This document shows, one piece after another, positions 41,670-63,429 of a DNA stretch of 64,000 bases. Position 1 is the first letter of the stretch. Each line of letters starts with the position of its first letter. Source of the DNA: Squalus acanthias (taxonomy: Eukaryota); assembly GCA_030390025.1 (NCBI GenBank), contig CM059432.1, forward strand, positions 64,172,001 to 64,236,000, read 5' to 3'. The notes beneath the pieces are model-generated. The model ran no database searches. It saw nothing but the letters and a program-made list of their open reading frames with translations, and had not been told where the DNA came from. The translations under genes were made by a program, and so were the position numbers.

Positions 41670-41707
41670 TCACCTGACGAAGGAGCAGCCGCTCCGAAAG
41701 CTTGTGA
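41670..41707 (+). ncRNA. Minimal type-I hammerhead ribozyme motif, family A
   Basis: tcac-CTGACGA-a-ggagc(agcc)gctcc-GAA-AGCT-T-gtga. Confidence 0.8.
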
Positions 41708-41949
41708 TTTCAAATAAAACTGTTGGACTATAACCTGGTGTTGTGCGACTTCTCAATGAAGAGTGTGGGGAGCATTGGCTGTATGCAGCAATCATTTAAA
41801 AGAGTAGGCAGCACCAATTTAACATGCTGCCTGCAATGCAATGAACGGACGCGAGTTAATCGCGTACCGCAATCCCCATGCCCGTTTTCGGAGTTAGCCA
41901 ATTTTTCCCCCTATGACTTTAGGCCTCATTACTTATAAGAGCACGAATC

Positions 41950-42365
41950 CACCACCTTAAACATTCACTCCCTCCACCACCAGCGCACCGTGGCTGCAGT
42001 GTGTACTATCTATAAGATGCAGTGCAGCAACTTGCCAAGTCTTTTTCGACAGCACCTCCCAAACCCGCGACCTCTACCACCTGGAAGGACAAGGGCAGCA
42101 GACGCATGGGAACACCAACGCCTGCAAGTTCCCCTCCAAGTCACACACCATCCTGACTTGGAAATATATCGTCGTTCCTTCATAGTCGCTGGGTCAAAAT
42201 CCTGGAACTCACTCCCTAACAGCACTATGGGAGTACCTTCACCACATGGACTGCAGCGGTTCAAGAAGGTGGCTCACCACCGCCTTCTCAAGGGCAATTA
42301 GGGATGGGCAATAAATGCTGGCCTTGCCAGCAGCGCCCACATCCCATGAACGAATAATAAAAAAA
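41950..42365 (+). mobile_element. 3' end of the second CR1-group LINE family
   Basis: SKSWNSLP...FKKVAHHRLLKGN; reverse copy at 58402-58800. Confidence 0.88.
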
Positions 42366-42656
42366 ATCATGTTTTCCATACTTCCAATTCAGGCTCATGC
42401 CCTATTGGAAAAGCTTGTGAATGTACAAATTTAAATGTAGCTTGATATCCCTTAACATATGCTCCATGTTTCAAGTTGCTTTGCATATAGTGTTGCTGGC
42501 ATTATTAAACGACTTATCGGTTTCACAATATATTAGGAGAAACATGAATAAGTGTTGAAGTACTTATCCACTATTACCTAATCAGCAATCCAAGAATTAG
42601 TCATAGCTATACTACAAATTTATCTATCAAGCTATTATAGTGGGCATCCCGAAGAT

Positions 42657-43012
42657 ACAGGAAACTCTTTGGTATCTGGCACCGACGAGACCGGGATGGT
42701 GCCGGTTGATTAAAAATTCCGGATAACGGAGAGGTATATCTACCGAGGCTATTTTTAACTAACAAAAATAAAAAAATCAAGAAATGTGCAGTATAATTGG
42801 GTACTCCCCGACAGAATGTTGTGTTAACTGGATGGTGGAAGATGCTTGATTAAGTACAGTAATGCCAGTTGAGGGTAATCCATAACTCTTTAATTACTTA
42901 ACAGTAAAACAAAACTTATAAACGACTGTATACTGTAGTTTTCGGAGTATGAATTCTGCCGGTTATTGGAGAATTCCGGATATTTAGGTGCCGTTTAAAC
43001 GAGAGTTCCCAC
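42657..43012. mobile_element. Probable Tc1/mariner-pogo (Tigger-like) MITE
   Basis: ta-CAGGAAACTCT start, AGAGTTCC near the end; repeated subterminal tccggata and gccggtt motifs. Confidence 0.45.
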
Positions 43013-43254
43013 ATTAGAATTTTTTTTTTTTTACTCACGGGTTGGATAAATGTGGGAAACAATTTGACAGGAAGGTTAGTGGCGAGCAAGTATTAGGGTC
43101 ATTCAAAATGCAATTAAAGGCTAATGTGGAAGAGCTGGTAATTAGAGATATGAGTTTTGGTGACTGAATAGCCATTTCATGTCTGAGACTTTTCTAATAT
43201 TTTTATGACCGAAGATGCACAGCAATTCCTATTTTAGCACACTTCATCTGAGAA

Positions 43255-43865
43255 TTTGAGAAGCTGTCAAACACTGACATTCTCTGTTGTTTGGTGAGTT
43301 CTTGTACTCAAGACTCAACAAAACTATTTCCTGAGCAGAAATCAGATGGCTGTTGCATTGGAGAATGCAGCAGCCATTCTGTCATCTCTGCCATTGAGAT
43401 GTCGGAGCCTCCGCATCCCCAACGATTGAAGCCTGCAGGAAGAAACAAAGGTAAGGTAACTTTTTCTAACACTTTTCACTTACCTCACATACTTACCTCT
43501 CCACACTTGCACCCATCACTCACCTCCACAGCGCAGTTTTCGACCCCTCCAACCCCCGCAGACCCACTGCTCGCCTCGCTGACCCTGGCGGGGTTTCCCG
43601 ACGTTGGGAAGCCCGCACTTGTGTTGGTAAAATGGGGATAATCCTCTTAACTGCCTGTTAACTACCTGTTAACAGGCAGTTAAGTGGCTGTAATCCCCTT
43701 CCCGCCTCCAGGAGACGGGACCTGATGCGGGTCGGGTACCCGCCTCCTGGGAAGATGGCACGGAGGCGGGTTGGGGGCGGAATGGGTACCCGCTCCCAGA
43801 TTCTGCCATTTTCCCGGCAGTCCCGCCTCCAAACCCACCTCCCCAGGGCTGGCAAAATTGCCCCC
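43255..43865 (+). mobile_element. Partial copy of the 32710-33553 MITE
   Basis: High similarity to 32950-33553; ends CAAAATTGCCCCC. Confidence 0.85.
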
Positions 43866-43961
43866 AGAGTAATAAATAGGCAAAAGACCAAAAAGAGTGC
43901 ACATCCAAATTTTTATATTACTCCTGAAAAGCTGTGAGTAAGATGATGTCTGCGGATAGAT

Positions 43962-44120
43962 GGGGCGGATTTTGAACTTGCCGCCCAGGCGTAATCCTGG
44001 CGTTGCGAATTGGCCGCCCATTATAGAAATCAATGGAAGTGAACATTGGGAAGTTTCTACAATGGATGGCTGATCCGCAACGCCAGTTTTACGGCTGGGC
44101 AGTAAGTTCAAAAATTGGCC
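43962..44120. mobile_element. Short palindromic MITE
   Basis: Imperfect arms of about 65 bp: ttttgaacttgccgcccag / ctgggcagtaagttcaaaa. Confidence 0.75.
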
Positions 44121-44304
44121 TCTCAGATGTAGAAGGGGAGAGTTTGGCCTGCTCACTAGGTGTAACAACCTTGTAAATGCATTCTTTTTGAGTGGATTTA
44201 CAACGTTGTACACAGTGAGCAGAGCAACTATCATCTTCCTTATAAAAACAGAAAATGCTGGAAATACTCAGCAGGTCAGACAGCATCTGTGGAGAGAGAA
44301 ACAG

Positions 44305-44341
44305 AGTTAACGTTTCAGGTCGATGACCCTTCGTCAGAACT
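44305..44341 (-). ncRNA. Minimal hammerhead motif, family B
   Basis: Minus strand: agtt-CTGACGA-a-gggtc(atc)gacct-GAA-ACGT-T-aact. Confidence 0.8.
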
Positions 44342-44551
44342 GGAAAAAGTTGGAGATGGAGCAGGTTTTTAAGTAAGTGTAGGGGCAGGGAAAGGGGGGA
44401 GGGGAGGAAAGAACAAAAAGGGAAGGTCTGTGATAGGATGGAAGGCAGGAGAGATTAAGAAACCTTCCTCTTTGTTCTTTCCTCTCCACCCCTCCCCCCT
44501 TTCCCTGCCCCTACACTTGCTTAAAAACCTGTTCCATCTCCAACTTTTTCC

Positions 44552-44588
44552 AGTTCTGACGAAGGGTCATCGACCTGAAACATTAACT
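44552..44588 (+). ncRNA. Minimal hammerhead motif, family B, stem III mutated
   Basis: Same as 44305-44341 but ACAT instead of ACGT. Confidence 0.65.
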
Positions 44589-45329
44589 CTGTTTCTCTCT
44601 CCACAGATGCTGCCTGACCTGCTGAGTATTTCCAGCATTTTCTGTTTTTATTTCAGATTTCCAGCATCCGCAGTATTTTGCTTTTGTATTATCTCCCTTC
44701 AAGTGTATCTGTGCACTTTATCCATAGTAGCTGAATTCTTAATGGAATAATTAACACATTTAGTAACACAGATTGAAGCATAAACAAGTTAATCTGTCCA
44801 TTTTATGGATCTCCTTTCTCATGCTCTGCACGGGTCAGAAAATCCAGCCCTGATCTTGTGTACCTGTCTCATGTCATGCACAATCTGCTCATGACCAAAC
44901 ATGTTAGGCTGCACTATAGGCATGTGCAGGTCTCATTGGAGTTAATTAAAACAGATCCCACACCAAATCTTCTGACTTCATGCTAAACTCCAACCAAAGC
45001 GCACACCTCACCATATAAAATGGAAGCATGGAAGTCCTCGTACTTGGCCTGCTGAAACAGGCTTCTTAAACGGAAGATGACGGTTTTGGTTGGTGGTAAA
45101 AAAAAATTGTGGTTTTACGTACATTTTTCTGGATTTTGTTCAATTAATTAGTTGATTTTGCTGAGTAGGCTGCAATTATTGCATTCTTTGACTTTTTATC
45201 CTGCCAGTACTTCCCTTCAATATTCTTGGTTATCACTGATATTTAATTTGCACCATATAAAAGGGTAAGGCTGGATATTTGTTTGGGTGTTCTGATCATG
45301 CTGCAGATTTAAAGGAGGAGCCAACAAAT

Positions 45330-45745
45330 GCAGATGCGATGATACATGAGGTGTCTTGTCCACACCCATCACTACCCTAGGGCCCATGTACGTAGACCCC
45401 TCCACATGTACATGGACACACCAGTGGAGACCGGTCTTCACAACCTCTGCTTCACAAGATTTGTACAATCTGCTACAGGATGACATGCAGTCAACATCTG
45501 GAACAGGTAGGCTTTGCCTATAGAAGGGAAGCCTTCAATCCACCACATAGGACGTGTATAACATGTGTACACACCTGTATCAAGCAATTGCCAGTTGCTA
45601 TATTTGAAGTAGGACCACTTTCATCACTTTTCCTATGGAAAGGAGATATCAACTAGACCGTATGCATAGTTTCACCAGGTGGTAGATTTCCCTCTAGTGC
45701 AGGGCATTGTAGACACCAATGTAGGTATCAGTGCTTTTCGTATCA
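45330..45745 (+). pseudogene. Decayed Harbinger transposase
   Basis: Manual translation DLYNLLQDDMQSTS...FITFPM...FPLVQGIVD parallels 37190-37500. Confidence 0.6.
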
Positions 45746-45767
45746 ACCTCATTGCACTCAATTGCTA

Positions 45768-45960
45768 ACAAAAAGCAAAACAAACTGCAGATGCTGATAA
45801 TCTGAAACAAAATTTGAAACTGCTGGAAACACTCAGCAGTCAATCAGCATCTATGGAGAGAACAGTTGAGTTAACAGTTCAGATGTAGAACCTTCATGAG
45901 AACTGGAAGTTAATACAGATGAACAGCATTTAAAAAGGAACAGAAGGAGGAAGAAAGAGA
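45768..45960 (-). mobile_element. Decayed family B Penelope-type terminal repeat
   Basis: Resembles the reverse complement of 44520-44690; hammerhead core is mutated. Confidence 0.7.
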
Positions 45961-46228
45961 ACACATACACGCGCACGCAGACACACGCACGCACAGACAC
46001 AGGAGAGAAAAAATAGAAAGGTGTGCAAAGTGCTTAATTGGAAAACAGGAGACAACTTCCATTGTTACCTGCCTTACCTCCCCTGCCTCAGATATTCACT
46101 GTCTCATAAATGTCTTTAATATCTTTGATTTCTTTCATTATGCCTCCTATTGTCTCAAGTTAATATCACTTCAGCCATTTAATAATTTCCTGTTTTCCAC
46201 TTAAGCACAGGTCAATCTATATCTTTTC

Positions 46229-46230
<2 letters not shown>

Positions 46231-46269
<39 letters not shown>

Positions 46270-46276
46270 TGTGTGT
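46231..46276 (+). repeat. (GT)n microsatellite
   Basis: About 23 units with one interruption. Confidence 0.95.
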
Positions 46277-46689
46277 AGACCTGACTTTGATGCAGAACAG
46301 AAATCAGGCGGGTAGGGGGAAAAGCGAATGCCAAAAACCCCAGCCCTTGGCAGCGTGAGGCCTGAGAGGTTTTAACCTCTCTCCATGCAGTTTGCACCTG
46401 GTCCATAATTGGTCTATTTTTCAGTCACAACTACAACTTTTCCTTTCACGGTGAACTGCAGCCCTTTAAGAACTGCAGCTTCATCAGATTTTTTACTCCC
46501 CAGCCAAGCCAAATTTTGAACGTGGCAGTAGCCTATACAAAATTAAGGGGATGGACACTGATTAGGAAATTCGGCACAGGCCGCCCTCTGCCAATGAGCC
46601 TGTGCTATGGGACATTCAACAACATTTGTAGCAGATTAGAAAATTAGGTGTTTTATTCCCTGCTTCAAATTGATTAGAAAGAATTAGAA

Positions 46690-47730
46690 AGACTGCAAAT
46701 CAAAGCTGGGGTTCTTTTCTCTAGAATAGAAAAGTCTGAAAAGTGACATGACAGAGGTCTTTAAAATTATGAAGAGGTTAGATAGAGTAGATGTTTCCAC
46801 TTGTGAGGGAGTCCAAAACTATGGGTCATAAATACAAAAAATAGTCACTAATAAATCCAGTAAGGAATTCAGGAGAATCTTTGGCCCAGATATTGACTGG
46901 GGCAAGTTTCGTAAGCAGGGGAGGGTGGGGGCAAGGAGTTTGTCAGGAAGCCCGGGTTTCCCCCCATGCTGTGGAGCAGGTAAGGAACCAGTTGCTGAAT
47001 TAGTGGGGGTGTCCGATCCCTGACCCCGGGGGTGCATCTGACCCTGGCGGTGGGGGGGGGGGGGGGGGTGATCTGATCCCAGGGGGTTCTTTGGATTGGC
47101 GGGGGGAGGGGGGATCTGAAGGCAGGGAAGAAGGTAGCTAGGCGTGCCGGGACTGGGGGTGGGGCAGAAGGGGAAGCACTCCTGATCCTCCTGGCCCACA
47201 AGCAGTGCTGAAAAGGCAGTTACCTTTTCCCTGAAGATGTCCGCACCTCCCTTGAGCTACTGGGTTTCCGGAGGCCTGGAAAACCCGGCCGCCCAGGGTT
47301 AAACCTGTAAGATAGGTTAAATGTGAGGCTCCCAGCCTCATTATAATATTTAAGTGGCCAACCCGCCTCCTGGGAGCGGGTTGGCTGCCCACCCCCGTCC
47401 CACCTCCATTAATCCTGGAAGTGGGCGGGTTGGGGTTGGGTTTGAAATTTTAGTAATTTTTACATCTCACCTGATCCCAACTCATACATTTTTGAGGGTT
47501 AAAATTACCTCCGAGAATGTGGAACATGGAGTGGTTGAGGCAAACATCATAGATGCATTTAAGGGGAATATAGACAAGTACATAAAGAGGAAGAAATAGA
47601 AGAAGAATATGTTGATGAGGTTAGATGAAGTAAAGTGAAGTAAATAGAGTGAGAGGAGGCTCATGTGAAGCATAAACACTGGCAAGGGTCGAATGGCCTG
47701 TTTCTGTGCTGAAAATGTAAATTCTATGTA
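46690..47730 (+). mobile_element. Old CR1 3' fragment split by a MITE at 46883-47512
   Basis: ttttctctagaa...aagtgacatg...ggtcataaata, then gtggttgaggca...ggtcgaatggcctgtttctgtgctg; MITE starts GGCCCAGATATT. Confidence 0.7.
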
Positions 47731-47832
47731 GCTATACATCAGCTAATTAAAGGAGCATGCAATCTAGCCTATTTTAAATGGAAGAACTGAACAGCATTTA
47801 TATTCGTTGTTTAGAATGACATTTTTTACAAT

Positions 47833-48574
47833 GGCCCAAAAATTCGTGAGTGAGCCTTCGTGCGAGGGTAAGGCCTCCCCGCGATCTCTCACTGCGCGCT
47901 GGCTTTTTCAGTCCGAGCTCGCACGAACTTGATGTTCTGGACAGCAGCTGTGCAGGGCTTCCGTATCCCACAGGCGTAGTTAATTCGTGCGAGCTGTGGG
48001 ATCACGTGACTCAGTTAGAGCCAATGGCAGCACACCATCTTTCATTCATAGCTTTCACATAAGTGCTGTGAAAGCTATGAATACTATACCCCCCCAAAAG
48101 AACAGCTAAACCTCAATTAAATTTAAAAAAAAACCATCACATTAATAAAATAAGTATAGTTAAATAAATTAACCATTTTAAACAAAAAATTAAATTTTTG
48201 AAAATTTTTAAATCTTTTAAAAAGTTATAAAAATAAACTTACCTGTCTTTAAAGTCTCTAAAAAAGATATACCTGTTAAAAAAAATTCAAAATAATACTT
48301 AATTAACTACTTACCTTGTTAAAAGAGGGTCTTACGCCTCCTTTCTTTATGTCTAAAATGTTCCATGCTTACCTGCGCGTCCAAAGCACTAAGTGCACTG
48401 CGTGCGCGCAGCCTGTAGCGCGCACGCAGTTCACCTAGGAACCGCCCCCTTTTGAATTCACCAAGTGCCGGTTTTCAGCGCATGCGCAGTGCATGCAGAA
48501 AACCGGCAATTGGAGACAGAATACGCGAGAGTATACAGTGCGTACTCTCGCGTAGCGGCACTAATTTTTGGGCC
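47833..48574. mobile_element. Harbinger-type MITE, probably young
   Basis: Perfect TIR GGCCCAAAAATT / AATTTTTGGGCC; TSD AAT; CpG-rich ends. Confidence 0.9.
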
Positions 48575-48618
48575 AATATTTCATACTTTATCACAACCAA
48601 TATAGTTCTAAAAATATA

Positions 48619-49070
48619 GGCCTAGAAATTCATCTCGGGCGGTGGCGCAGCACGGACAGCATCGGATAGGCCGCCCGTTATAGACAGCCCCGATATTCAG
48701 TTCCATTGCAGTTAACCTTTACAATGAGTTGAGGTTATTTTTGGCCCCTTTAAAAATGTTTATATTTATTTTTCAAAAAATTTAATTTGTTTTAAATGTT
48801 TAATTAAATTGTATTTTAATTAATTTGAACAGGTGATGATTTATTTTTATTTAAGTGCTGTGAAATGTATTTTTTAGGGGATTCCTAATTATGCTTATGG
48901 GGATTCTGTACGGAAATGGAATCCCCCTTTGTCATTGGTTGGGCCGGCCTATGTGATCCCAGGGACGCTTGCGAACCACATGCGCCCCTGGGATACGTGG
49001 GCCTTTACGCAGGCATACACTTGCAGGCCCAGTAGTGCAAGTGTTCGAAGGCCCGGAGCAATCAGGTAGT
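48619..49070 (+). mobile_element. Partial Harbinger-type MITE
   Basis: Starts GGCCTAGAAATT; 48925-49005 is similar to 50490-50570. Confidence 0.5.
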
Positions 49071-49499
49071 TGCTACCTAACAACTCATACCATCCACGGT
49101 TTGTGGGTAGGAGCAGGAAGTGACATTAGTCAGGTGGATAGGTCAGGAAATTGAATTGATGTCTTCATGAAGTCACACGACCCCAATTTGAACATATTTA
49201 TGAGGCTCCTAAATGCTTTGGATGGGAGCTCTGGTCACCAGGAATCCCCACACAGGAAAATCTTGAACAGGCTAATGATTGCGGGCTGTAATTTTATTGC
49301 AGTCGTTAGCCTGTTCAAGATAAATGTGTTAACAACTGTATTAAATTAAAACAGGCAAGAAGTTAACATGAGCGTATTACCAATGTGCTCAAAATAGACC
49401 AAACTAAATTCATTTGTATTTCTGACTTCAAATGATTTTACAAAACTCAAAGCAACCCATAACAAAGTAAACTAGCCAGGATTAGACTTCATTTAATGA

Positions 49500-49576
49500 T
49501 AAGTCGCACAACACCAGGTTATAGTCCAACAGATTTATTTAAAATTACAAGCTTTCGGAGCTGTTGCCCCTTCGAC
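49500..49576 (-). mobile_element. Short family A Penelope terminal fragment with a partial hammerhead
   Basis: gtcgcacaacaccaggttatagtccaacag...caagctttcggagc; the CTGA core is missing. Confidence 0.8.
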
Positions 49577-50999: not shown

Positions 51000-51648
51000 T
51001 CTTTTGGAGGTCTCCTTCACCTATCAGCAGGGAACAGGACCTCCCTGCGTGCTCTCACTGCCTCCACCAGAGTATGCAGGGATGCGTCAGAAATCGTGGT
51101 GCAGCCCTCACCTTTGCCACACTCACCGTTGACTATCCATCATTGTTCGTTTAGAACAGTACTCAGCCCTTTGTATTTCAGCTTCCACACTCCTCTAGCA
51201 ACCTTCAAATGAGTTGAGTGCAAGGCTGCTTTAAGTATTGGCGCTGGAAGCGAGTCATCGATGACATCATCAGACCTGCTCCATTTAACTGGTCCGAGAA
51301 ATGCGCTTGACTGCTTTAAGTGGGGCCATTAAGTTAAAGTCATCCTGAAGAATGCACTGAGCAAAGCATTGCGTTCCCGACCCGCTACGCAGCCTATACG
51401 CTCCCGACCTGACTCCACGGTAAAAATTCCATCCCAAGTTTTTGTCAGACAATTGAATTTCTACTTTATTAACATTTTTCTAAACCACCCAAAACAGTCA
51501 AAACAGATTTTAGCACAGCTGTTGGCATGTTACAGTGATCAGCTCACTTGATTGTTTTATGATGCGGAGATGCCGGTGTTGGACTGGGGTGGACAAAAAT
51601 GAGAAGTCGCACAACACCAGGTTATAGTCCAACAGTTTTATTTGAAAT

Positions 51649-51683
51649 TACGAGCTTTCGGAGCGCTGCTCCTTCGTCAGGTA
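51649..51683 (-). ncRNA. Minimal hammerhead motif, family A
   Basis: Minus strand: tac-CTGACGA-a-ggagc(agc)gctcc-GAA-AGCT-C-gta. Confidence 0.8.
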
Positions 51684-51917
51684 CAGTGAGGGAATACAAA
51701 TCGGTTACAAAGTATATATAGACAGAGAACAATGTGTCTGCAGAGATACAATCCGTCAGGAGGCATTACATCAAAGACACAGCAGAGTACAGCTAAGACA
51801 ATGAGGTTGGGTTACAGGGGGTCCAACGTGTCAAATGCTGCAGTCTGCAGTTAAGCTTTTTACTTTTTTTTTAATAAAACTGGAAATCACATCTGTGAAC
51901 CAGACAACGACGTCGAG

Positions 51918-52517
51918 TCACGTCCTGTAGCGTGACATGAAACCGAGATCCCGGTTGAGGCCGTCCTCATGGGTGCGGAACTTAGCTATCAGTTTCTGCT
52001 CGATGATTTTGCGTTCTCGTGTGTCTCGAAGGCCGCCTTGGAGAACGCTAACCCGCAGATCCGAGGCTGAATGTCCTTGACTGCTGAAGTGTTCCCCGAC
52101 TGGGAGGTAACAATCCTGCCTGGCGATTGTTGCGCGGTGTCCGTTCATACGTTGTCTCAGTGTCTGCATGGTCTCGCCGATGTACCATGCTGCGGTGCAT
52201 TCTTTCCTGCAACGTATGAGGTAGACAATGTTGGCCGAGTCACATGAGTATGTACCATGTACCTGGTGGGTAGTGGCCTCACGTGTGATGATGGTATCTG
52301 TGTTGATGATCTGACATGTCTTGCAGAGGTTGCCGTGGCAGGGTTGTCTGGTGTCGTGGTCGCTGTTCTCCTGACAGCTGGGTAATTTGCTGCGAATGAT
52401 GGTACTTTTGAGGTTAGGCGGCTGCTTGAAGGCAAGTAGTGGAGGCGTGGGGATGGCCTTAGCAAGGTGTTCGTCGTCATCGATGACATGTTGAAGGCTG
52501 CGAAGAACATGGCGTAG
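51918..52517 (-). pseudogene. Penelope linker plus GIY-YIG endonuclease, left arm
   Basis: Mirror of 52527-53126. Confidence 0.9.
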
Positions 52518-52526
52518 TTTCTCCGG

Positions 52527-53126
52527 CTACGCCATGTTCTTCGCAGCCTTCAACATGTCATCGATGATGACGAACACCTTGCTAAGGCCATCCCCACGCC
52601 TCCACTACTCGCCTTCAAGCAGCCGCCTAACCTCAAAAGTACCATCATTCGCAGCAAATTACCCAGCTGTCAGGAGAACAGCGACCACGACACCACACAA
52701 CCCTGCCACGGCAACCTCTGCAAGACATGCCAGACCATCAACACAGATACCATCATCACACGTGAGGACACTACCCACCAGGTACATGGTACATACTCAT
52801 GTGACTCGGCCAACGTTGTCTACCTCATACGTTGCAGGAAAGAATGCACCGCAGCATGGTACATCGGCGAGACCATGCAGACACTGAGACAACGTATGAA
52901 CGGACACTGCGCAACAATCGCCAGGCAGGATTGTTACCTCCCAGTCGGGGAACACTTCAGCAGTCAAGGACATTCAGCCTCGGATCCGGGGGTTAGCGTT
53001 CTCCAAGGCGGCCTTCGAGACACACGACAACGCAAAATCATCGAGCAGAAACTGATAGCTAAGTTCCGCACCCATGAGGACGGCCTCAACCGGGATCTCG
53101 GTTTCATGTCATGCTACAGGACGTGA
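52527..53126 (+). pseudogene. Penelope linker plus GIY-YIG endonuclease, right arm, 5'-truncated
   Basis: LRHVLRSLQH...PLLAFKQPPNLK...PCHGNLCKTC...VVYLIRC...WYIGET...GLN; the Cys-rich linker suggests the Neptune group. Confidence 0.9.
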
Positions 53127-53358
53127 CTCGATGTCATTGTCTGGTTCACAGATGTGATTTCCAGTTTTTAAAAAAAAGTAAAAAGCTTAACTGCAGACTG
53201 CAGCATTTGGCACGTTGGATCCCCTGTGACCCCACCTCATTGTCTTAGCTGTACTCTGCTGTGTCTTTGATGTAATGCCTCCCTGACGGATTGTATCTCT
53301 GCAGACACATTGTTCTCTGTCTATATATACTTTGTAACCGATTTGTATTCTCTCACTG

Positions 53359-53393
53359 TACCTGATGAAGGAGCAGCGCTCCGAAAGCTCGTA
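53359..53393 (+). ncRNA. Minimal hammerhead motif, family A
   Basis: tac-CTGATGA-a-ggagc(agc)gctcc-GAA-AGCT-C-gta. Confidence 0.82.
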
Positions 53394-54243
53394 ATTTCAA
53401 ATAAAACTGTTGGACTATAACCTGGTGTTGTGCGACTTCTCATTTTTGATTGTTTTAATCATTGCAATGTCCCCCTATTTTCTTCCCTCTCCAACATTCA
53501 TACTTAGCTCCCCCTTGCACTTACCAATGTTCTATTTCTTGGCAGGGAGACTGGATGACTCAACTGGTAAGCCTGCTAATATCGCTACAGACTCTGTGAC
53601 TGGCATTCCTTGTTGGCTGTGCCAGAAGATATACCTGAGTAGTGAGGGAAAGGTGTGCTTTGTTAATTTTCCCATCTTTCCATTAAAGTATTATTTATAT
53701 ATTTATTAATTCCAGTAAATGAAATGGCTTAATTGGATAAACCATGGTTGGTTTGGGCAGCAGTCCTTTAGTGACTTAACTAAGAGTTAACAAATGATAA
53801 CTAAGTGAACAGATTCAAGCAGCAACAGCAATTGAACCTGAGAGATCAATCTACTGCCGCTTATACTCGGCCAACTTGTATGGTATCAATTTATGATGTT
53901 GTTGAGTTCGGGGTTATCTTGTTGGGCCATAATCTTGCTGTCTGATCTGCAGACAAGAAAACTAGTTGAGCAGCAGGACTCTGCTATTTGGTGTGGGGGA
54001 TTGATCGGTTTATATCTATGGCCACTAGGTCTTAACTGGTAAAAAAAATCCTTTGGAGCATGTTTTCAGCCAATCAAAGCTGAATTATTTAGATTTGGTT
54101 CCCTCCTCAAATTAGTGATCAGCCCCAAAAGCCCAAGGAAATCAGGTAAGTAGGATAAGGGTTGTGAGCACCACTTACAGGAGTGACCAGTGACACTGAG
54201 CCAGAGAGTACATTTAGCACAAAAACATGAAAGGTGTGACAAT

Positions 54244-54819: not shown

Positions 54820-55539
54820 AATGTCTCGTGAACAATTACCACCTCAAAACCTTTAAGAGCAACTTAGGAAATATACATGGGTGGACAAAAAGCTGTTTCT
54901 GTTTCCTGGACCATGACATCTATTGCTGGAGGATTGTAAGAGAAACAATTAAGATAACTAAATAAATAATTGGTTAACTCAATTTAATATTGATTTTTGG
55001 TGAATGAATTTTTGGCACATGTTTCATTTATTGAGTTGAAGCCCACTAGCAATTCAAGTAATTCTAGAAAATTGGACTGGGCGGTGATTGATTTAAAAAA
55101 AAATGAATGTAAAACCTACTGTGAAGGCTGAGAGATTCAACAACAAAAGGTGGGTCCTTCACAGCTAAAAGCATGTAATCTGAGGAAATTTGCATCTCCA
55201 TATCCAGCTGCCACAGGAAAGTGAGCACCAGATAGAGGAACGCAGTAAGATTTCGTGGACAATAAGTCCCTTTCCTTGCCTTGAACCGCAGCAGGTTTTT
55301 GACATTCAGTTTTGTTTCTTTATGGTCATTTGCAAATCTTCCACATTTTCTCTTCCAAATGATTTTATAGGAATTCATTTCTGAAATGCTTTATATTCAG
55401 CACTGGACAAAGCTCCACTGGGAATTTGTAAACAGAAAACAAAGAACTTAAAGAACATATTGGTTCCTGATGTAATGTTATTAAATAAGAAATGCTCCTT
55501 TAAGTCCAAAGGATACAGACTTGAATGTTTATGGCATTC

Positions 55540-58401
55540 TCGCCAGATCTGACTGGACCACATAAAGCACTATTGGGACCTGCTCTCCTCTGCCAAATCT
55601 GCTCATTATTCCAGGATCATCCTGGAATGCAATTGGCTTATATTCTCCACTGCAAACCATCTTCTTAAACTCCTCTCCCCTGCCTCCTCCATCCTCATCT
55701 CCAACAAGAAGTGTGAGGAGCTTACGGACTTCTTTGTCACTAAGATTGAGACCATCCATTGAGCTAATTTGCTCCCTTCCCCTAGCCCACCCAACCAAAC
55801 TTCCCCATAGGTTCCCACTGCCCTAGCCCTGAACTCGCATCTTTCTCTAGTTTCTCTCCTATCTCCCTTCATGCCCTCTCCAAGCTCATCTTGTCCATGA
55901 AACCTACTTCATGCTCCCTCATCCCTATTCCCATCAAACTGCTGCCCGCCCCCCTCCCCCCCTCCCCCCCCGCCAGCTTCCCTTCCTGGCCCCCATGTTA
56001 GCTGATATTGTTAACAGTTCCCTCTCCTCAGGTACTGTCCCGTCCCAATCAAATCTTTCCCAAATCTCCATATTTGAACCCCTCCAATCAGGTTTCCAAC
56101 CCTGCCGCAGCACTGAAACGGCTCTTATCAAAGTCACAAATGGCATCCTCTATGACTGTGACCATGGTAAACTGTCCCTTCTCATCCTTCTTGACCTGTC
56201 TGCAGTCGTTGACATGGTTGACCACACCATCCTCCCCCAACACCTCTCCTCCGTTGTCCAGCTGGCTGGGACTGCCCTCGCCTAGTTCCATTCCTATCTA
56301 TCCAGTCATAGCCAGAGAATCATCGGTTTCTCTTCCAGCACTGTTACCTCAGGAGTCCCCCAAGGATCTATCCTTGGCCCCCTCTTATTTCTCATCTACA
56401 TGCTGTACCTTGACAACCTCATCTGAAAAAACATCAGGTTCCCCATGTACACTGACGACAACCAGCTCTACCTCACCACCACCACCACCTCCCTCGACGC
56501 CTCCACTGCTTCTGATTTGTCATCCTACTTGTCCGACATCTAATATTTGATGAGTAGCAATTTCCTCTCATTAAATACTGGGAAGACCAAAGTCATTGGG
56601 CTGAGATTTCCGGGGTGGTAACGGGCGCGAATGGTGGTGGGTCGGGGGTTCGAAAGTTGTTATTTTTGACTGGGTCAGGAACCCGCTGCCATCTCGCTCC
56701 CATGTGCCTTTCCCCCAGGCGCGCCTGTCATCGCAGAGCCGACCTGACTGGCAGTGACGGGTGACCCAATTGAAATGATCATCAGGTAGTTTGCAGGCAC
56801 TTAAGAGCCTTTTTTCACTTACTTTTTAAATTTCCCTGCATGGCCACAGGATTCACACAGCTCGGGAACCACGTCTGTCAACCTGTGGCGGGAGTTCCGT
56901 GGCCATTGCTCCAGCTGATTACCCGACAGCATGAAAAACAAAAGGAATTTGGACATGAGTCTAGGTTCGGATCGGTCATGGCCCTGTGGGTAGTGGAGCG
57001 GGCCCAGGGACCGTGTAGGCTGATTCTGCTCCTATTTCGTGTGTGCAATTCTGTTAGATGCAGGAGATGGTTCTGTGATAGTAGATAGTAGATTGGCGGT
57101 TAGGATCAGATCAGCCATGATCTTATTGAATGGCGGAGCAGGCTCGAGGGGCCGATTGGCCTACTCCTGCTCCTATTTCTTATGTTCTTATGTTAAACCA
57201 AAATGAAAACATGTTGATTACATCAGCTGACAGATTGATGGAGATCCTGTTCTACTTGAAAAGCTACTGGTAAATGTTAGTTCAGAAATTCCTGAAGGGA
57301 TGTGAGTGCTGAAGGCTCCCCTCCTACCCTGGATGGTGAGGGAAATACACTTTTCACTGGCCATTCTCGGCTGTTGCCTTCCAACTCAACACTAATTGCA
57401 GTGAATTGTTCTGCACTATAAAAAAATAAATATACCATTTATATAAATTTTTGTGTTGTTTCTGGTCAGGTTTTTCTAACAGTATACTGTGATTGCCCAG
57501 TTACAGGTTAAATCAAGTCATCAACTGTAACAATTTAATTCTCATCACTCATTCGACTGGTTCAATTTGCTTTCAGTCCCTGAATATAACTAATTTAATT
57601 TTTCAGTCTGAGACTTAAGGGTTGAATTTCTGCAGAGGATCTCTCATTTGTCCATTGTTAACGTCAACGGAAGAGCTGCAGAAATCCCTGAAACACATAA
57701 GCACCACTTATACTGTTTATCAGGGTTTCCGCAGCTCTTCCGCTGAACTTGCATAAGATTGTAAATCCACCCTTTACAATTACATTTAAAATCTGCTTAA
57801 TTTTATATATTACCAATACACACACATCTTTTATTTGTACCAATTACTGATACAAAAGTCGATAGATTTGTGACTAAGGAACCAATAACTTCCCAATTAA
57901 TGTACTGTTTTAATTATGTTCTTGATCATATTTGTAGATGATGTCATATTACTTAATGATAATATTATTTAAATATTTCTTTGTCATTCATATGTAACTT
58001 ATTATTTTATTGTAGAGTAAAAATTCAGCACCCACTTTGTTATATTAAACTTCAAATCCAATGTGGCCATGGTCCCTTTAAAGATCCCGGCTGAAAACGC
58101 GTCATGAATGACGTCACCAGGCCCAGCTCCATCTCATTGGGTCGGGTAACGCGCTGGGCGGGCTGAATAGGCCCCATTAAGGTAAGTTCATTTTCAACAG
58201 CGAGATGGAGCCAGCAGCGGGGTCGGGACCTGCCACGGACACCGCCCGCACCGGGACCCGTCCAGGTAGGCAAAATTCCGGCCAGTATCTTTGATCCCCA
58301 CCAGAAACTCCTTTCTCTGATCACTGACATCATCCCTCTCCCTGGCAACTGCCTGAGGCTGAACCAGACCGTTCACAACCATGGCATCCGATTTGACCCG
58401 A
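55540..58401 (+). mobile_element. Decayed L2 RT fragment in two pieces (55540-56597 and 58284-58401)
   Basis: [37 protein letters not shown]; resumes after an insertion. Confidence 0.88.
56598..58283. mobile_element. Harbinger-type composite insertion containing a CR1 tail (about 57060-57195) and a small palindromic MITE (about 57618-57772)
   Basis: Ends GGGCTGAGATTT / AAATTCCGGCC precisely interrupt the L2. Confidence 0.55.
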
Positions 58402-59365
58402 TTTATGGGATCTGGGCATTGCTGGCACGGCCAGCATTTATTGCCCATCCCTAGTTGCCCTTGAGAAGGTGGTGGTGAGCCGCCTTCCTGAACCGCTGCA
58501 GTCCGTGTGGTGAAGGTACTCCCACAGTGCTGTTAGGTAGGGAGTTCCAGGATTTTGACCCGGCGACGATGAAGGATCGGCGATATACTTCTAAGTCAGG
58601 ATGGTGTGTGATTTGGAGGGGAACTTGGAAGTGGTGGTGTTCCCATGCACCTGCTGCCCTTGTCTTTCTAGGTGGAAGAGGTCGTGGGTTTGGGAGGTGC
58701 TGCCGAAGAAGCCTTTGCAAATTGCTGCAGTGCATCTTGTAGATGGTACACACTGCAGCCACAGTACGCCGGTGGTGGAGGGAGTGAAAGTTTAAGGTGA
58801 TGGATGGAGTGCCAATCAAGTGGGCTGCTTTGTCCTGGATGGTTTTGAGCTACTTGAGTGTTGTTGGAGCTGCACTCATCCAGGCAAGTGGAGAGTATTC
58901 ATCACACTCCTTACTTGTGCGTTGTAGATGGTGGAAAGGCTTTGGGGAGTCAGGAGGTGAGACACTTGCCGCAGAATACCTAGCCTCTGACCTGCTCTTG
59001 TTGCCACAGTATTTATGTGGCTGGTCCAGTTAAGTTTCTGGTCAATGGTGACCCCCAGGATATTGATGGTGGGGGATTCGGCGATGGTAATGCCGTTGAA
59101 TGTCAAGGGGCGGTGGTTAGAATCTCGCTTGTTGGAGATAGTCATTGCCTGGCACTTCTGTGGCGCGAATGTTACCTGCCACTTATCAGCCCAATCCTGA
59201 ACGTCATCCAGGTCTTGTTGCATGTGGGCATGGACTGCTTCATTATCTGAGGAGTTGTGAATGGTGCTGAACACTGTGCAGTCATCAGTGAACATCCCCA
59301 TTTCTAACCTTATGTTGGAGGGAAGGTCATTGATGAAGCAACTGAAGATGGTTGGACCTAGGACC
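58402..59365 (-). mobile_element. 5'-truncated CR1-group LINE, second family
   Basis: MFTDDC, WQVTFAPQKC, LGVTIDQKLNW, SKSWNSLP. Confidence 0.9.
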
Positions 59366-59889
59366 CTACATTACCACTACTGTTTGGGGTCCTATAAACA
59401 ACTCCCACCAATGTTTTCTGCCCCTTGCTGTTTCTTAGCTCCACCTAAACTGATTCTACTTCTTGATTTTCAGAGCTAAGATCCTCTCTCCTGTCTTTAT
59501 CCCATCCTTTATTATCAGGGCGTCTTTTCCATTTTGCCAATCTCTTCTAAAAGTTAAGGGTCTTCTAAGAGTATGTTGACTCCCGTGATTTTTAAAGTGA
59601 CTGGACAGAAAATTCCCAGATTCCCTGATGGGTAAAGCACCATGCTGGGAAAGCGATCTTGTAAAAAATATCTCCTAAATCAGCAATCCCACTCAGAGAG
59701 GCCACAGGGTGGCTCCTGTGGGAATGGACAAACGTTACACTGGTACAGTAAGGGTTCGAAGTGGTAGATACTACAGTCCTGATATTACCATCTATTTTTA
59801 TGCTGGACAAATTGGGTGCATTGACCTACATGTAAGATTTTCCAACCCAGGCTCTGGGTGAGTGAAACCCCGTTCTGCGGCAGAGTCTT

Positions 59890-60030
59890 GCAATTTGAGA
59901 GAAATGTAGAGGAACAGAGGGACCTCGGAGTGCATGTCCACAGATCCCTGAAGGTAGCAGGACAGGTAAATAAGGTGGTTAAGAAGGCACACGGGATGCT
60001 TTCCTTTATTACCTGAGGCATAGAATATAA
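59890..60030 (+). mobile_element. CR1 fragment
   Basis: gaacagagggacctcggagtgcatgtccacagatccctgaagg encodes QRDLGVHVHRSLK. Confidence 0.75.
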
Positions 60031-61515
60031 GAACATAAGATGTAGGAGCAGGAGTAGGTCATTTGGCCCCTTGAGCCTGCTCCGCCGTTCAATAAGATCA
60101 TGGCTGATCTGATCTTGGCCTCAACTCCACTTCCCTGCCCGCTCCCCATAACCCTCGACTCCCTTACCATTCAAAAATCTGTCTATCTTAAATATGTTCA
60201 ATGACCCAGCCTCCACAGCTCTCTGGGGAAGAGAATTCCATAGATTCACGACTCTCTGAGAGAAGAAATTCCTCCTCATTTCCGTTTTAAATGGGTGCCC
60301 CCTTATTCTGAAATTATGCCCCCAGTTCTAGATTCCCCCGCGAGGGGAAACATTCTCTCTGCATCTACCCTGTTAAGCCCCTTCAGAATCTTATATGTTT
60401 CAATAAGCTCCCTCACATTCTTCTAAACTCCAATGAGTATAGACCCAACCTACTCAACCATTCTTCATAAGACAAACCCTTCATCTCCAGAATCAACCTC
60501 ATGAACCTTCTCTGAACTGCCTCCAATGCAAGTATATCCTTCCTTAAATAAGGAGACCAAAACTGTACACAGTACTCCAGGTGTGGTCTCACCAATGCCC
60601 TGTACAGTTGTAACAGGACTTCCCTACTTTTATACTCCATTCCCTTTGCAATAAAGGCTAACATTCCATTTGCCATCCTAATTTCTTGCTGTACCTGCAT
60701 GCTAACTTTTTGTGATTCATGTACAAGGACCCCCAGATCCCTCTGTACCTCAGCATTTTGTAATCTCTCCCAATTTAAATAATAATTTGCTTTTTTATTT
60801 TTCCTACCAAAGTGGATAACCTCGCATTTTCCCACATTATACTCCATCTGCCAGATTTTTGCCCACTCACTTAGCCTATCTATATCAGCCTATCTATATC
60901 CCTTTGGAGATTCTTTGTTTCCTCCACACTATTTGCTCCGACCTATCTTTGTATCATCAGCAAATTTGGCTACATTATACTCGGTCCCTTCATCCAAGTC
61001 ATTAATATAGATTGTAAATAGTTGAGGCCCCAACACTGATCCCTGCGGCACCCCACTAGTTACAGTTTGCCAACCTGAAAATGACCCATTTATCCCGACT
61101 CTCTGTTTTCTGTTAGTTAATCCTCCACCCATGCTAATATATTATCTCCAACCCTGTGAGCTCTTATCTTGTGCAGTAACCTTTTATGTGGCACCTTATC
61201 GAATGCCTTCTGGAAATCCAAATACACACCATCTACTGGTTCCCCTTTATCCACCCTGCTTGTTACATCCTCAAAGAACTCGAGCAAATTTGTCAAATAT
61301 GATTTCCCTTTCATAAAACCATGCTGACTCTGCTTGACTATATTAGGATTTTCTAAATGTCCTGCTACCACTTCCTTTATGATAGACTCCAGCATTTTCC
61401 CAATGACAGATGTTAGGGTAACTGGTCTACAGTTGCCTGCGTTCTGTCTCCCTCCTTTCTTAAATAGGGGCGTTACATTTGTGGTTTTCCGGTCCGCTGG
61501 GACCTCTCTAGAATC
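60031..61515 (-). mobile_element. 5'-truncated CR1
   Basis: [48 protein letters not shown]. Confidence 0.95.
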
Positions 61516-61664
61516 ACCACTGGTCTTCATGCTGCAGTCTGGTAATAATAGATTCTCTCAACTAGTCGGAACCACTTGACACCACTACCATGGGAATTAC
61601 AGTCCTCACTGACTCATTCTTCCTTTATTATTTCAACAATAGTGATTATCAAAATAATAATAAT

Positions 61665-62471
61665 TAAAATCCATGACGAGGCCTTGGACAACGTGAACCA
61701 CATTCCATACCTCGGGAGCCTACTGTCAACGAGGGCAGACGTCGATGACGAAGTCCAACACCGCCTTCAGTATGCCAGTGCAGCCTTCGGTCGCCTGAGG
61801 AAGAGACTGTTTGAAGACCAGGACCTCAAACCCAGCACCAAGCTCATGGTCTACAGAGCAGTAGTGATACCCACCCTCCTGTATGCTTCAGAGACATGGA
61901 CCATGTACAGCAGGCGCCTCAAAGCACTGAAGAGGTACCACCAACGCTGCCTCCGCAAGATCCTGCAAATCCACGTCAATGTTCTCGCTCAGGCCAACAT
62001 CCCCAGCATCGAAACTTTGACCACGCTCGATCAGCTCCGATGGACGGGCCACATCGTCCGCATGCCCGATACGAGACTCCCAAAGCAAGCGCTCTACTTG
62101 GAGCTCTGACATGGCAAGAGAGCCCCAGGTGGGCAGAGGAAACGCTTCAAGGACACCCTCAAAGCCTCCTTGAAAAAGTGCAACATCCCCACCGACACCT
62201 GGGAATCCCTGGCCCAAGACCGCACAAAGTGGAGGAGAAGCATCTGGGAAGGCGCCGAACACCTCGAGTCTCTTCGCCGGGAGCAAGCAGAAGCCAAGCG
62301 CAAGGAGCGCACGTCAACCCAAGCACTCCACCCACCCCTTCAACCACTGTCTGCCCCACCTGTGACAGAGACTGTAGGTCCCGCATTGGACTCATACGTC
62401 ACCCGAGAACTCATTTTTAATGTGGAAGCAAGTCATCCTTGGTTACGAAGGACTGCCTAAGAAGAAGAAGA
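61665..62471 (+). mobile_element. 5'-truncated RTE-clade LINE
   Basis: YLGS, ASAAFGRLRKR, VYRAVVIPTLLYASETW, LRWTGHIVRM, C-terminal CPTC...IGL..H..TH; (AAG)n tail. Confidence 0.9.
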
Positions 62472-62905
62472 GTGACAACAGAGTCTGACACATTTTTGCA
62501 CAGCTTGAAATCACACTCTGTGATATTAGTAACGAGCACGCTAACCCATTGCCACATTTCAGCATTTGGAAAAAGCGTTTCTTTTAATGGGTTTTTAAAT
62601 GGAATGTGTATTCGCACAAATATGAAAAATAGAGCACCAAGATGACGGGTGGTTAATAAACTGAATGTATATCCAGAGACTTGACAATAAACAACTTGCT
62701 AGCTTGTCTAGGTAATCACAAAGCACCTCTCACCTATTGTATTGTAAACCTCTTTGACCTCTTTGAGGCGAGGGTTAAAAAAAGAGACACAGATACAAAG
62801 GCTGGCTTTTAGAATCAGGATGCGGAGATGCCGGTGTTGGACTGGGGTGGACAAAATTGAGAGGTCGCACAACACCAGGTTATAGTCCAACAGTTTTATT
62901 TGAAA

Positions 62906-62947
62906 TCACAAGCTTTCGGAGCTATCGATTGCTCCTTCCTCAGGTGA
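62906..62947 (-). ncRNA. Minimal hammerhead motif, family A
   Basis: Minus strand: tcac-CTGAGGA-a-ggagc(aatcgata)gctcc-GAA-AGCT-T-gtga. Confidence 0.78.
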
Positions 62948-63387
62948 AGTAAATTAGATACAGAATCGCCAAAGCATATATAGATAGAAAACAAAGCATG
63001 TGTACCTTACAATTGCAGACCACTAAATTAAATCATCCTGACTATCTGCCGAGGTGTGATAAAGTTAATTAAGTCAGCCAGGAAGGTACCACATCAAAGA
63101 CATAGCAAGATACAACTGAGACAATGAGGTGTAGTAAAAATTTTAAAGCTTTTCGTTTTACATACAGACGGCAGCTTTTGACATGTTAGAACCCCTGCGA
63201 CTACACCTCATTGTCTCAGTTGTATCTTGCTATGTCTTTGATGTGGTACCTTCCTGGCTGACTTAATTAACTTTATCACACCTCGGCAGATAGTCAGGAT
63301 GATTTAATTTAGTGGTCTGCAATTGTAAGGTACACATGCTTTGTTTTCTATCTATATATGCTTTGACGATTCTGTATCTAATTTACT

Positions 63388-63429
63388 TCACCTGAGGAAG
63401 GAGCAATCGATAGCTCCGAAAGCTTGTGA
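63388..63429 (+). ncRNA. Minimal hammerhead motif, family A
   Basis: tcac-CTGAGGA-a-ggagc(aatcgata)gctcc-GAA-AGCT-T-gtga. Confidence 0.78.

What the first reader, a model, noticed from the sequence alone, without database searches (positions are those of the whole stretch)
41670..63429. Seven minimal hammerhead ribozyme motifs with covariation, in two families
Seen: CTGANGA / stem II / GAAA cores at 41670+, 51649-, 53359+, 62906-, 63388+ (family A) and 44305-, 44552+ (family B). Stem I covaries (cac/gtg, tac/gta, agtt/aact), loop II varies from 3 to 8 nt while stem II holds, and stem III is reduced to a palindrome (AGCT or ACGT). Predicted cleavage follows CUU, CUC or GUU. Known: Penelope-like elements carry such minimal type-I hammerheads, thought to cleave as dimers. 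Caveat: paired copies here are inverted, so one transcript holds only one sense ribozyme and its antisense arm could block it.
Basis: partly seen in the sequence, partly recalled or inferred. Interest (0 to 1): 0.8.

Follow-up and report, generated by a model that had tools for sequence, protein, structure and literature searches.

The report
Hammerheads in shark Penelope retroelement ends
The motifs are real minimal hammerhead-ribozyme sequences at the ends of four truncated, fold-back copies of two Penelope-like jumping genes in what is likely a shark genome, a kind described in 2014; these copies are likely dead and self-cleavage is untested.

Summary
Six of seven motifs fit a minimal type-I hammerhead (shuffles average 0.05). 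The seventh, 44552+, has ACAT instead of ACGT, so its palindrome is broken. The seven come from four TSD-flanked, 5'-truncated fold-back insertions of two Penelope-like (PLE) families (RT + Zn-linker + GIY-YIG, 31% identical). The genome holds at least 92,000 such motifs.

The core differs at 1.6% of sites against 4.3% upstream, and at one CpG the tolerated C7T outnumbers core-breaking G8A 2,094 to 542.

Copy 5' ends pile up at a TATA/initiator-like site at the ribozyme's 5' edge, not at the cut (1 of 100 A, 3 of 71 B). Short copies therefore likely came from uncleaved RNA.

Motif class, fold-back units, tail and putative TATA/Inr are all published; this scan noted the same on other DNA and in this genome. 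Verdict: new members of a known kind. Cleavage itself was not tested.

The parts
40327..41766 (.). Insertion E1 (family A): head-to-head fold-back of a PLE 3' end; left arm 40348-40866(-) stops before the ribozyme, right arm about 40863-41755(+); 13-bp TSD at 40327-40339 and 41754-41766
   Evidence: tblastn of the PLE protein, residues 763-897
41637..41669 (+). TATA-like box (starts 41637) and initiator-like TCACTTC with its A at 41667, 30 nt apart; predicted transcription start
   Evidence: geometry; 5' ends of copies; function inferred
41670..41707 (+). Minimal hammerhead A: stem I 4 bp, extra A, stem II 5 bp, loop 4, AGCU palindrome; predicted cut after CUU at 41703; no inverted partner
44229..44699 (.). 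Insertion E2 (family B): fold-back, arms about 44242-44423(-) and 44464-44686(+), tail on the right arm; degenerate 13-bp TSD (11/13) at 44229-44241 and 44687-44699
44305..44341 (-). Minimal hammerhead B: stem I AGUU/AACU, stem II 5 bp with G-U at 10.1-11.1, loop 3, ACGU palindrome; predicted cut after GUU at 44309
44552..44588 (+). Hammerhead B with broken palindrome (ACAT); TTAAAA at 44521 and initiator-like CCAGTTC whose A (44552) is the first base of stem I
51548..53457 (.). Insertion E3 (family A): fold-back, arms about 51560-52525(-) and 52527-53445(+), about 97% complementary; tail of about 40 nt on the left arm only; 12-bp TSD at 51548-51559 and 53446-53457
52518..53126 (+). C-terminal fragment of the PLE ORF: C-x4-C-x2-C linker and GIY-YIG endonuclease; mirror copy at 51918-52526(-)
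   Evidence: PF01541, E 4e-4, below the curated cut-off; 90-96% identity to the 897-aa ORF of L031
51649..51683 (-). Minimal hammerhead A: stem I 3 bp UAC/GUA, loop 3; predicted cut after CUC at 51652
53359..53393 (+). Minimal hammerhead A, mirror of 51649 with N7 = U; predicted cut after 53390; TATATA at 53322-53329
53394..53445 (+). Conserved leader 3' of the cut; the copy ends here, at the inferred reverse-transcription start; a 30-mer of it has 90,712 exact matches in the genome
   Evidence: role inferred from PMC11167929
62807..63474 (.). Insertion E4 (family A): non-coding fold-back, 265-nt arms 99% complementary, tail on the left arm; 14-bp TSD at 62807-62820 and 63461-63474
62906..62947 (-). 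Minimal hammerhead A, loop 8; predicted cut after CUU at 62910
63388..63429 (+). Minimal hammerhead A, loop 8; predicted cut after CUU at 63425; TATATA at 63353, initiator-like A at 63385
49495..49574 (-).
45816..45909 (-).
15250..15310 (+). Family-B leader-only copy that begins at the first base after the predicted cut

Best explanation
The motifs are minimal type-I hammerhead sequences in the pseudo-LTRs of two Penelope-like retroelement families, left here in four 5'-truncated, TSD-flanked fold-back insertions that are likely dead, while in source elements the ribozyme likely cuts only part of the RNA and likely needs a partner copy or the element's protein. Shown: the anatomy (ORF end, pLTR, TATA/Inr-like site, hammerhead, leader, optional tail); tandem same-strand hammerheads about 3.1 kb apart in long copies; constraint on the catalytic core; and 5' ends of short copies piling up at the ribozyme's 5' edge. 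Inferred: RNA polymerase II starts at the initiator 0-3 nt 5' of stem I, so the RNA begins with the hammerhead and reads through the ORF into the second pLTR. The element's RT primes on nicked DNA and starts inside the leader, about 55 or 90 nt 3' of the cut in family A, which gives copies without or with the tail. Starting at the 5'-proximal leader it runs off the uncleaved 5' end and leaves very short copies. Starting at the 3' leader it gives longer 5'-truncated copies such as E1-E4, with the inverted second arm made during the same insertion. Slow, assisted cleavage between the two tandem copies would trim precursor RNA to unit length, possibly followed by re-ligation. That step would matter only for the rare insertions that rebuild pLTR-ORF-pLTR, which is where selection on the core acts. 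In the window's fold-backs a read-through RNA is predicted to bury each motif in a long duplex.
For: Descriptor vs shuffles: 6 vs mean 0.047; 19 in 80 evenly spaced 10-kb stretches vs mean 0.35. TSDs of 12-14 bp around all four insertions. L031: hammerhead, 897-residue frame with RVT_1 (E 6e-8), C-x4-C-x2-C linker and GIY-YIG, then a second hammerhead on the same strand. L264: inverted copy plus tandem unit; L263: 943-residue family-B frame upstream of a B hammerhead. Best protein hits are shark proteins at 81-90%. Genome counts: 60,236 A and 32,259 B exact motifs, reversed controls 0. Constraint: in 64 nearest-neighbour pairs (of 115 leader-anchored copies, neighbour chosen on upstream sequence) non-CpG differences were core 11/673, palindrome GC 0/128, upstream 117/2719, loop II 20/244, N7 11/37. 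Six subfamily groups: core 97% alike, upstream 73%, loop II 43%. One CpG: CG 17,587, TG 2,094, CA 542, where neutral decay predicts TG = CA. N17 was U or C in 161 of 161 parsed copies. Pair counts on 13 hand-picked motifs: 98.5% of cells paired vs 20-51% for slid controls. 5' ends, family A: 28 of 100 within -1..+12 nt of C3 (3 are duplication artefacts), 13 in the next 48 nt, 1 at the cut +-2. Family B: 15 of 71 within -1..+5, 8 in the next 40 nt, 3 at the first base after the cut, one of them an internal deletion. TATA-to-Inr spacing 30-33 nt in all four variants. Tail on exactly one arm in 30 of 31 head-to-head pairs. Literature: PMC4209133, PMC11167929, PMC8557442, PMC3846280.
Against: No cleavage, transcription start or RNA end was observed: only assembled contigs were available. 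The modelled double hammerhead is no more stable than two monomers (-21.7 vs -22.6, -13.3 vs -13.6, -21.9 vs -22.8, -8.5 vs -11.8 kcal/mol). Only 2 of 6 isolated motifs fold into stems I+II as MFE, and no z-score is below -1.7. One amplified subfamily carries U4C in the core (majority form, 9 of 19, in one group). Family B has G-U or A-U instead of G-C at 10.1-11.1 (11.1 is U in 79 of 84 with G12). The leader 3' of the cut is as conserved as the core (97%, though biased as the anchor). The CpG asymmetry may rest on few source lineages. The A1 initiator match is imperfect. The 5'-end samples come from one end of one contig. In an anole PLE, ribozyme mutants did not affect insertion in vitro and no RNA-seq reads ended at the cut (PMC11167929).
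Confidence: 0.8

Rival explanations
1. Circle model: both tandem hammerheads cleave efficiently, the unit-length RNA re-ligates, and the circle is the main template for reverse transcription (proposed in PMC4209133).
For: Tandem same-strand motifs one unit apart; core under constraint; an intact hammerhead in long copies is also expected after re-ligation.
Against: A circle has no 5' end, yet about a quarter of sampled copies stop at the TATA/Inr-defined site and almost none at the cut. It can still be a minor route that makes the full-length copies.
Confidence: 0.2
2. The motif is kept as a structure or protein-binding/promoter element, or as a passenger, and no longer needs to cleave.
For: A U4C subfamily amplified; G-U at 10.1-11.1 in family B; weak predicted folding; ribozyme dispensable in vitro in an anole PLE; Naiad PLEs thrive without one (PMC8557442); the motif overlaps the predicted start site, so DNA-level promoter constraint is possible.
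Against: The pattern of freedom matches hammerhead chemistry: N7 takes all four bases, loop II is free, N17 is never G, G8 and G12 are held, stems compensate, and the palindrome switches AGCU to ACGU between families.
Confidence: 0.15
3. The pile-up of 5' ends reflects RT stalling or fold-back microhomology at the structured motif, not the RNA's 5' end.
For: 14 of 100 A and 13 of 71 B ends lie inside the core or stem II; many ends are fold-back junctions.
Against: The peak lies 5' of the structure, at an initiator-like A 30-33 nt from a TATA-like box, and shifts with it between families (offset 7 in A, 4 in B). Single, non-fold-back copies end there too.
Confidence: 0.25
4. The insertions are retrozymes or MITE-like elements that move as hairpin units in their own right.
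For: Terminal inverted arms with TSDs; 65 of 100 sampled A leaders have a head-to-head partner within 4 kb.
Against: Inversion points and arm lengths differ from copy to copy; the arms are 3' ends of autonomous PLEs; retrozymes are defined by tandem direct units (10.64898/2026.07.22.740005), which the window lacks.
Confidence: 0.05
5. Chance matches to a short consensus.
For: CTGANGA alone occurs 59 times in the window vs 38 expected; Rfam finds no hammerhead.
Against: Full descriptor 6 vs 0.047 expected; fixed position in the elements; more than 92,000 copies with reversed controls at 0.
Confidence: 0.01

Closest known systems
Minimal hammerheads (min-HHR) in pLTRs of metazoan Penelope-like elements, including Xena, Poseidon and Neptune of fishes (Cervera and De la Pena 2014, PMC4209133; parts 1-2 of 4 read, supplements not seen)
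   Same: Type-I topology, short helix I, unpaired base between 9 and 10.1, palindromic 15.2-16.2, thousands of mostly solitary copies in several sequence families, tandem pairs about 3 kb apart flanking an RT ORF, and close pairs on opposite strands.
   Different: Host is likely a shark (not named in the parts read); at least 92,000 copies against 4,000-9,000 reported for coelacanth and Xenopus; stem II is 5 bp; family B has G-U or A-U at 10.1-11.1; one subfamily has U4C.
Canonical EN+ PLE insertion unit: pLTR, adjacent inverted 5'-truncated copy, 30-40 bp tail on one end (Craig et al. 2021, PMC8557442; Arkhipova et al. 2013, PMC3846280; passages read)
   Same: Head-to-head inverted arms, tail on one arm only (30 of 31 pairs), TSDs, and a putative TATATATA plus TCACT initiator in the pLTR.
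   Different: TSDs here are 12-14 bp (8-10 in the rotifer passages). The passages read do not relate the initiator to the ribozyme or to copy 5' ends.
Poseidon of Anolis carolinensis, PAc (Frangieh et al. 2024, PMC11167929; parts 1-2 of 4 read)
   Same: Two internal RT start sites explaining the tail, hammerhead just upstream, unprocessed RNA as dominant template, protein-assisted cleavage.
   Different: PAc belongs to the Penelope/Poseidon clade; both families here carry the Zn-finger linker of Neptune/Nematis. The first ATG of family A follows the tail, whereas the PAc ORF starts in stem II.
Neptune-clade PLEs (as defined in PMC8557442)
   Same: C-terminal GIY-YIG with a CX2-5CxxC linker in both families.
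   Different: No tree against named Neptune references was built, so the clade call rests on the motif and domain order.
Animal non-LTR retrozymes (PMC7229834, listing only; 10.64898/2026.07.22.740005, part 1 of 5 and passages)
   Same: Type-I hammerheads in non-coding PLE-derived repeats; reported in one chondrichthyan genome.
   Different: Retrozymes are tandem direct arrays; the window's copies are solitary or inverted.

Membership tests
Minimal type-I hammerhead (min-HHR) | Core CUGANGA ... GAAA ... UH in type-I order | tested here: met
   7 of 7 have the core; H is U or C
Minimal type-I hammerhead (min-HHR) | Stems I and II, with an unpaired base before stem II | tested here: met
   stem I 3-4 bp, stem II 5 bp, extra A in 7 of 7
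Minimal type-I hammerhead (min-HHR) | Palindromic 15.1-16.1 segment allowing a dimeric helix III | tested here: met
   6 of 7 (AGCU or ACGU); not met for 44552+ (ACAU)
Minimal type-I hammerhead (min-HHR) | G10.1-C11.1 pair (typical, not universal) | tested here: inconclusive
   met in family A; G-U or A-U in family B
Minimal type-I hammerhead (min-HHR) | Core more constrained than flanks, N7 and loop II free | tested here: met
   not met against the downstream leader, which is equally conserved
Minimal type-I hammerhead (min-HHR) | Self-cleavage after N17 | not testable with these tools
   needs biochemistry or raw end-mapping reads; only contigs were served
Rfam hammerhead models | Score against a curated covariance model | tested here: not met
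   no hammerhead among 42 matches at E<=5
EN+ Penelope-like elements | Single ORF with RT and C-terminal GIY-YIG | tested here: met
   L031, L264 (family A) and L263 (family B); the window holds only the EN end of family A
EN+ Penelope-like elements | Partial-tandem pLTRs carrying the hammerhead | tested here: met
   family A: L031, L264; family B: only the 3' pLTR seen after the ORF
EN+ Penelope-like elements | Inverted 5'-truncated copy, one-sided tail, TSD | tested here: met
Neptune clade | CX2-5CxxC linker between RT and EN | tested here: met
   C-x4-C-x2-C in both ORFs
Neptune clade | RT phylogeny with named Neptune elements | not tested
   no named references were at hand
Non-LTR retrozymes | Tandem direct repeats, each with a hammerhead | tested here: not met
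   window copies are single or inverted

The most novel reading that the evidence does not exclude
In these PLEs the hammerhead is the first structure of a capped transcript, and it works like the R region of an LTR element. RT starting in the 5' leader makes a strong-stop-like cDNA ending at the cap (a G precedes the start base in 10 of 16 copies that end exactly there). The tens of thousands of stubs and mini fold-backs are failed transfers. Cleavage of only the 3' hammerhead would leave a terminal repeat of about 35 nt onto which that cDNA jumps to rebuild pLTR-ORF-pLTR. This would give the PLE ribozyme a defined role and make it testable.
Probability: 0.15. Interest if true: 0.7.

Novelty: new member of a known kind. 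Interest (0 to 1): 0.25.

Why it matters
As a discovery it matters little: the motif class and the fold-back anatomy are published, and the window is only about four times denser than the genome average (6 intact vs about 1.6 expected). Its value is as material for an open question, namely what PLE hammerheads do in vivo, which PMC8557442 calls unclear. The copy number allows two sequence-only tests: selection on the catalytic core in transposing elements (supported), and whether cleaved RNA is the template for insertions (mostly not). The 5'-end pattern also predicts a precise transcription start at the ribozyme's edge that one CAGE or RACE experiment would check.

Tried and rejected
Rfam cmscan: no hammerhead hit; the miRNA-like hits are the fold-back hairpins, all below gathering scores. 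A descriptor without the extra A found 1 of 7. The first 5'-end mapping was spoiled by references that were themselves fold-backs and was redone with hand-picked long references. RNA evidence: 22 runs listed, all contigs, only one on record as RNA. Four were laid on L031; three cover 29-30 of 30 bins with the highest depth over the ribozyme-leader bins, but contigs cannot show ends, strand or level, so this is not used as evidence. No solved structure matched the family-B protein. Same-strand family-B motifs 1.2-1.7 kb apart in L260-L262 sit inside larger tandem repeats, and the 4-kb pair in L259 shares only 100 bp; not shown to be retrozymes. Hairpins at 3258-3445 and 29089-29704 have no hammerhead and did not match either PLE unit. 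No TSD was found for the 49.5-kb relic. Literature: the search shark + Penelope + hammerhead ribozyme gave one review where 'shark' refers to the ribozyme's name; none of the 20 listed papers (of 41) holds 'strong-stop'; one search found no paper with all of Penelope-like, TATA box, pLTR and hammerhead among 7 listed. The library lacks most subscription papers, and supplements (for example figures S3-S4 of PMC4209133) were not seen and may list cartilaginous-fish motifs. Rows dropped: 3 of the first 74 family-B leader matches (in the tandem arrays) were left out; 51 of 115 copies had no usable neighbour; 42 of 203 did not parse, whose regex favours intact cores.
Full report
Observation. A descriptor without an extra base before stem II found one. 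Allowing that base found six, against a mean of 0.047 in 300 shuffles. Each has stem I of 3-4 bp, CUGANGA, an extra A, a 5-bp stem II with a loop of 3, 4 or 8 nt, GAAA, a two-base spacer and UH. The seventh, 44552+, has CA instead of CG, so the palindrome is broken and the triplet is AUU. Rfam has no hammerhead among its 42 weak matches.

Anatomy. The motifs belong to four insertions, each bounded by a 12-14 bp target-site duplication and each a head-to-head fold-back. E1 (40327-41766) and E3 (51548-53457) contain the end of an ORF with a C-x4-C-x2-C linker and a GIY-YIG motif. E2 and E4 are non-coding. In E1 the inverted arm stops short, so 41670 is unpaired. The order on each arm is ORF end, pLTR, TATA-like box, initiator-like site, hammerhead, conserved leader, and on one arm an extra tail. 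The rest of the window, as far as 22 of its 53 long frames were scanned, is other mobile DNA.

Source elements. Extending genomic relatives gave L031: a hammerhead, an 897-residue frame with RT (PF00078, E 6e-8), linker and GIY-YIG, broken near its end, and a second hammerhead on the same strand 3,031 bp on. L264 shows an inverted copy next to a tandem unit of 3,136 bp. L263 shows a 943-residue family-B frame followed by a B hammerhead; the two proteins are 31% identical. The closest database proteins are from sharks at 81-90%, so the 3.71-Gb host is likely a shark. Those are predicted to fold into duplexes (87-90% paired) and lack RT, so they are likely dead.

Abundance. Exact patterns count 60,236 family-A and 32,259 family-B motifs, with reversed controls at 0, and 90,712 copies of a 30-nt A leader. 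Eighty evenly spaced 10-kb stretches gave 19 descriptor hits against 0.35 in shuffles. About 1.6 intact motifs are expected per window.

Is the core under selection? Across six subfamily groups the 12 core positions are 97% alike, the upstream 60 nt 73% and loop II 43% (161 of 203 copies parsed, with a bias to intact cores). One subfamily has a largely different upstream pLTR but the same core and leader. In 64 nearest-neighbour pairs chosen on upstream sequence, non-CpG differences were 1.6% in the core, 0 of 128 in the palindrome and 4.3% upstream. At the N7-G8 CpG, neutral decay should hit both bases alike, but the genome holds 17,587 CG, 2,094 TG and 542 CA versions of one 30-mer. N7 takes all four bases and N17 only U or C. 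On 13 hand-picked motifs 98.5% of cells pair, against 20-51% for slid controls, though most two-sided changes separate A from B. Against: a U4C subfamily has amplified, family B has G-U or A-U at 10.1-11.1, the leader is as conserved as the core, and lineages were not counted independently.

Is cleaved RNA the template? Earlier notes of this scan suggested looking at 5' ends, so I anchored on the leader, 3' of the cut. Among the first 100 family-A matches on contig C1, 40 extend more than 60 nt 5' of C3, 13 end 13-60 nt 5', 28 end within -1..+12 (three are duplication artefacts), 16 end inside the core, stem II or stem III, 1 at the cut and 2 beyond it. Among 71 of the first 74 family-B matches, 27 are long, 8 end 6-45 nt 5', 15 within -1..+5, 15 inside, 3 at the first base after the cut (one is an internal deletion) and 3 beyond. 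The peaks coincide with an initiator-like A lying 30-33 nt after a TATA-like box in all four variants (the A1 match is imperfect). Among copies ending exactly at that A, the preceding base is G in 6 of 8 (A) and 4 of 8 (B), by my reading. That could be a cap-derived base (a known trait of LINE cDNAs, recalled), but all six A cases are fold-back junctions and the sample is small. A tail sits on exactly one arm in 30 of 31 head-to-head pairs. No RNA ends could be read: only contigs were served.

Mechanism. The best reading is a transcript that starts at the ribozyme's 5' edge and reads through both pLTRs; RT starts inside the leader, as shown in vitro for an anole PLE (PMC11167929); and cleavage is slow and assisted. 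My energy model gives the double hammerhead no advantage over two monomers, in line with the low activity reported for dimers (PMC4209133) and with protein-assisted cleavage. Short copies come from RNA not cut at the 5' hammerhead. Long copies keep hammerhead and leader joined, which fits uncut RNA or a re-ligated circle. Selection on the core would act through the rare copies that rebuild a tandem unit. Anatomy, counts and end positions are shown; start site, cleavage and its role are inferred.

Comparison. PMC4209133 describes this motif, including the extra base, the palindrome, tandem pairs about 3 kb apart and close pairs on opposite strands. PMC8557442 and PMC3846280 describe the inverted copy, one-sided tail, TSDs and a putative TATA plus TCACT initiator in the pLTR. 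Drosophila Penelope instead has a TATA-less internal promoter (PMC2377424, passages). The linker points to the Neptune type, untested by tree. Searches found no paper on shark PLE hammerheads or linking copy ends to the initiator, but supplements and subscription papers were not seen. The scan has noted this class before, in this genome and others.

Verdict. Observation partly confirmed (six intact, one mutated, four events); interpretation supported; new members of a known kind; interest 0.25. The boldest reading not excluded, a strong-stop and strand-transfer role for the ribozyme region, has a probability of about 0.15.

Noticed in passing
window 5253-9720: LTR retroelement of Ty3/gypsy domain order (protease, RT, RNase H, integrase) between 209-nt direct repeats 98% identical, so probably young; ORFs are split over frames.
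   Followed up: no
window 36943-37824: DDE_Tnp_4 (Harbinger-type) transposase frame, with a possible partner gene on the opposite strand further on.
   Followed up: no
window 592-2148, 18400-20800, 26500-28900, 58876-61600: Several decayed LINE-type RT fragments, related to each other in direct and inverted orientation.
   Followed up: no
L192:3940-3977(-) and relatives: Amplified family-A subfamily with U4C in the catalytic core and a compensatory C-G to U-A change in the last pair of stem II; a natural test variant.
   Followed up: partly
L031:3473-3558(-): The reading frame is open, without ATG, from just after the predicted cut through the leader and tail into the ORF; the tail ends at the first ATG (same in L264).
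   Followed up: partly
window 44581-44607: The family-B cut site and leader read like a branch point, pyrimidine tract and CAG followed by ATG (consensus recalled); the AG is not kept in some subfamilies.
   Followed up: no
G000:C1, list: Of 8 head-to-head pairs less than 20 nt apart among the first 100 matches, 5 have exactly 6 nt between the cores, suggesting one favoured fold-back junction at the predicted start site.
   Followed up: partly
L260-L262: Family-B hammerheads on one strand 1.2-1.7 kb apart inside larger tandem repeats; candidates for dimer-competent arrays.
   Followed up: partly
window 29089-29704 and 3258-3445: A 101-nt inverted repeat (95%, 414 nt apart) and a weaker hairpin, with no hammerhead and no match to either PLE unit.
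   Followed up: partly
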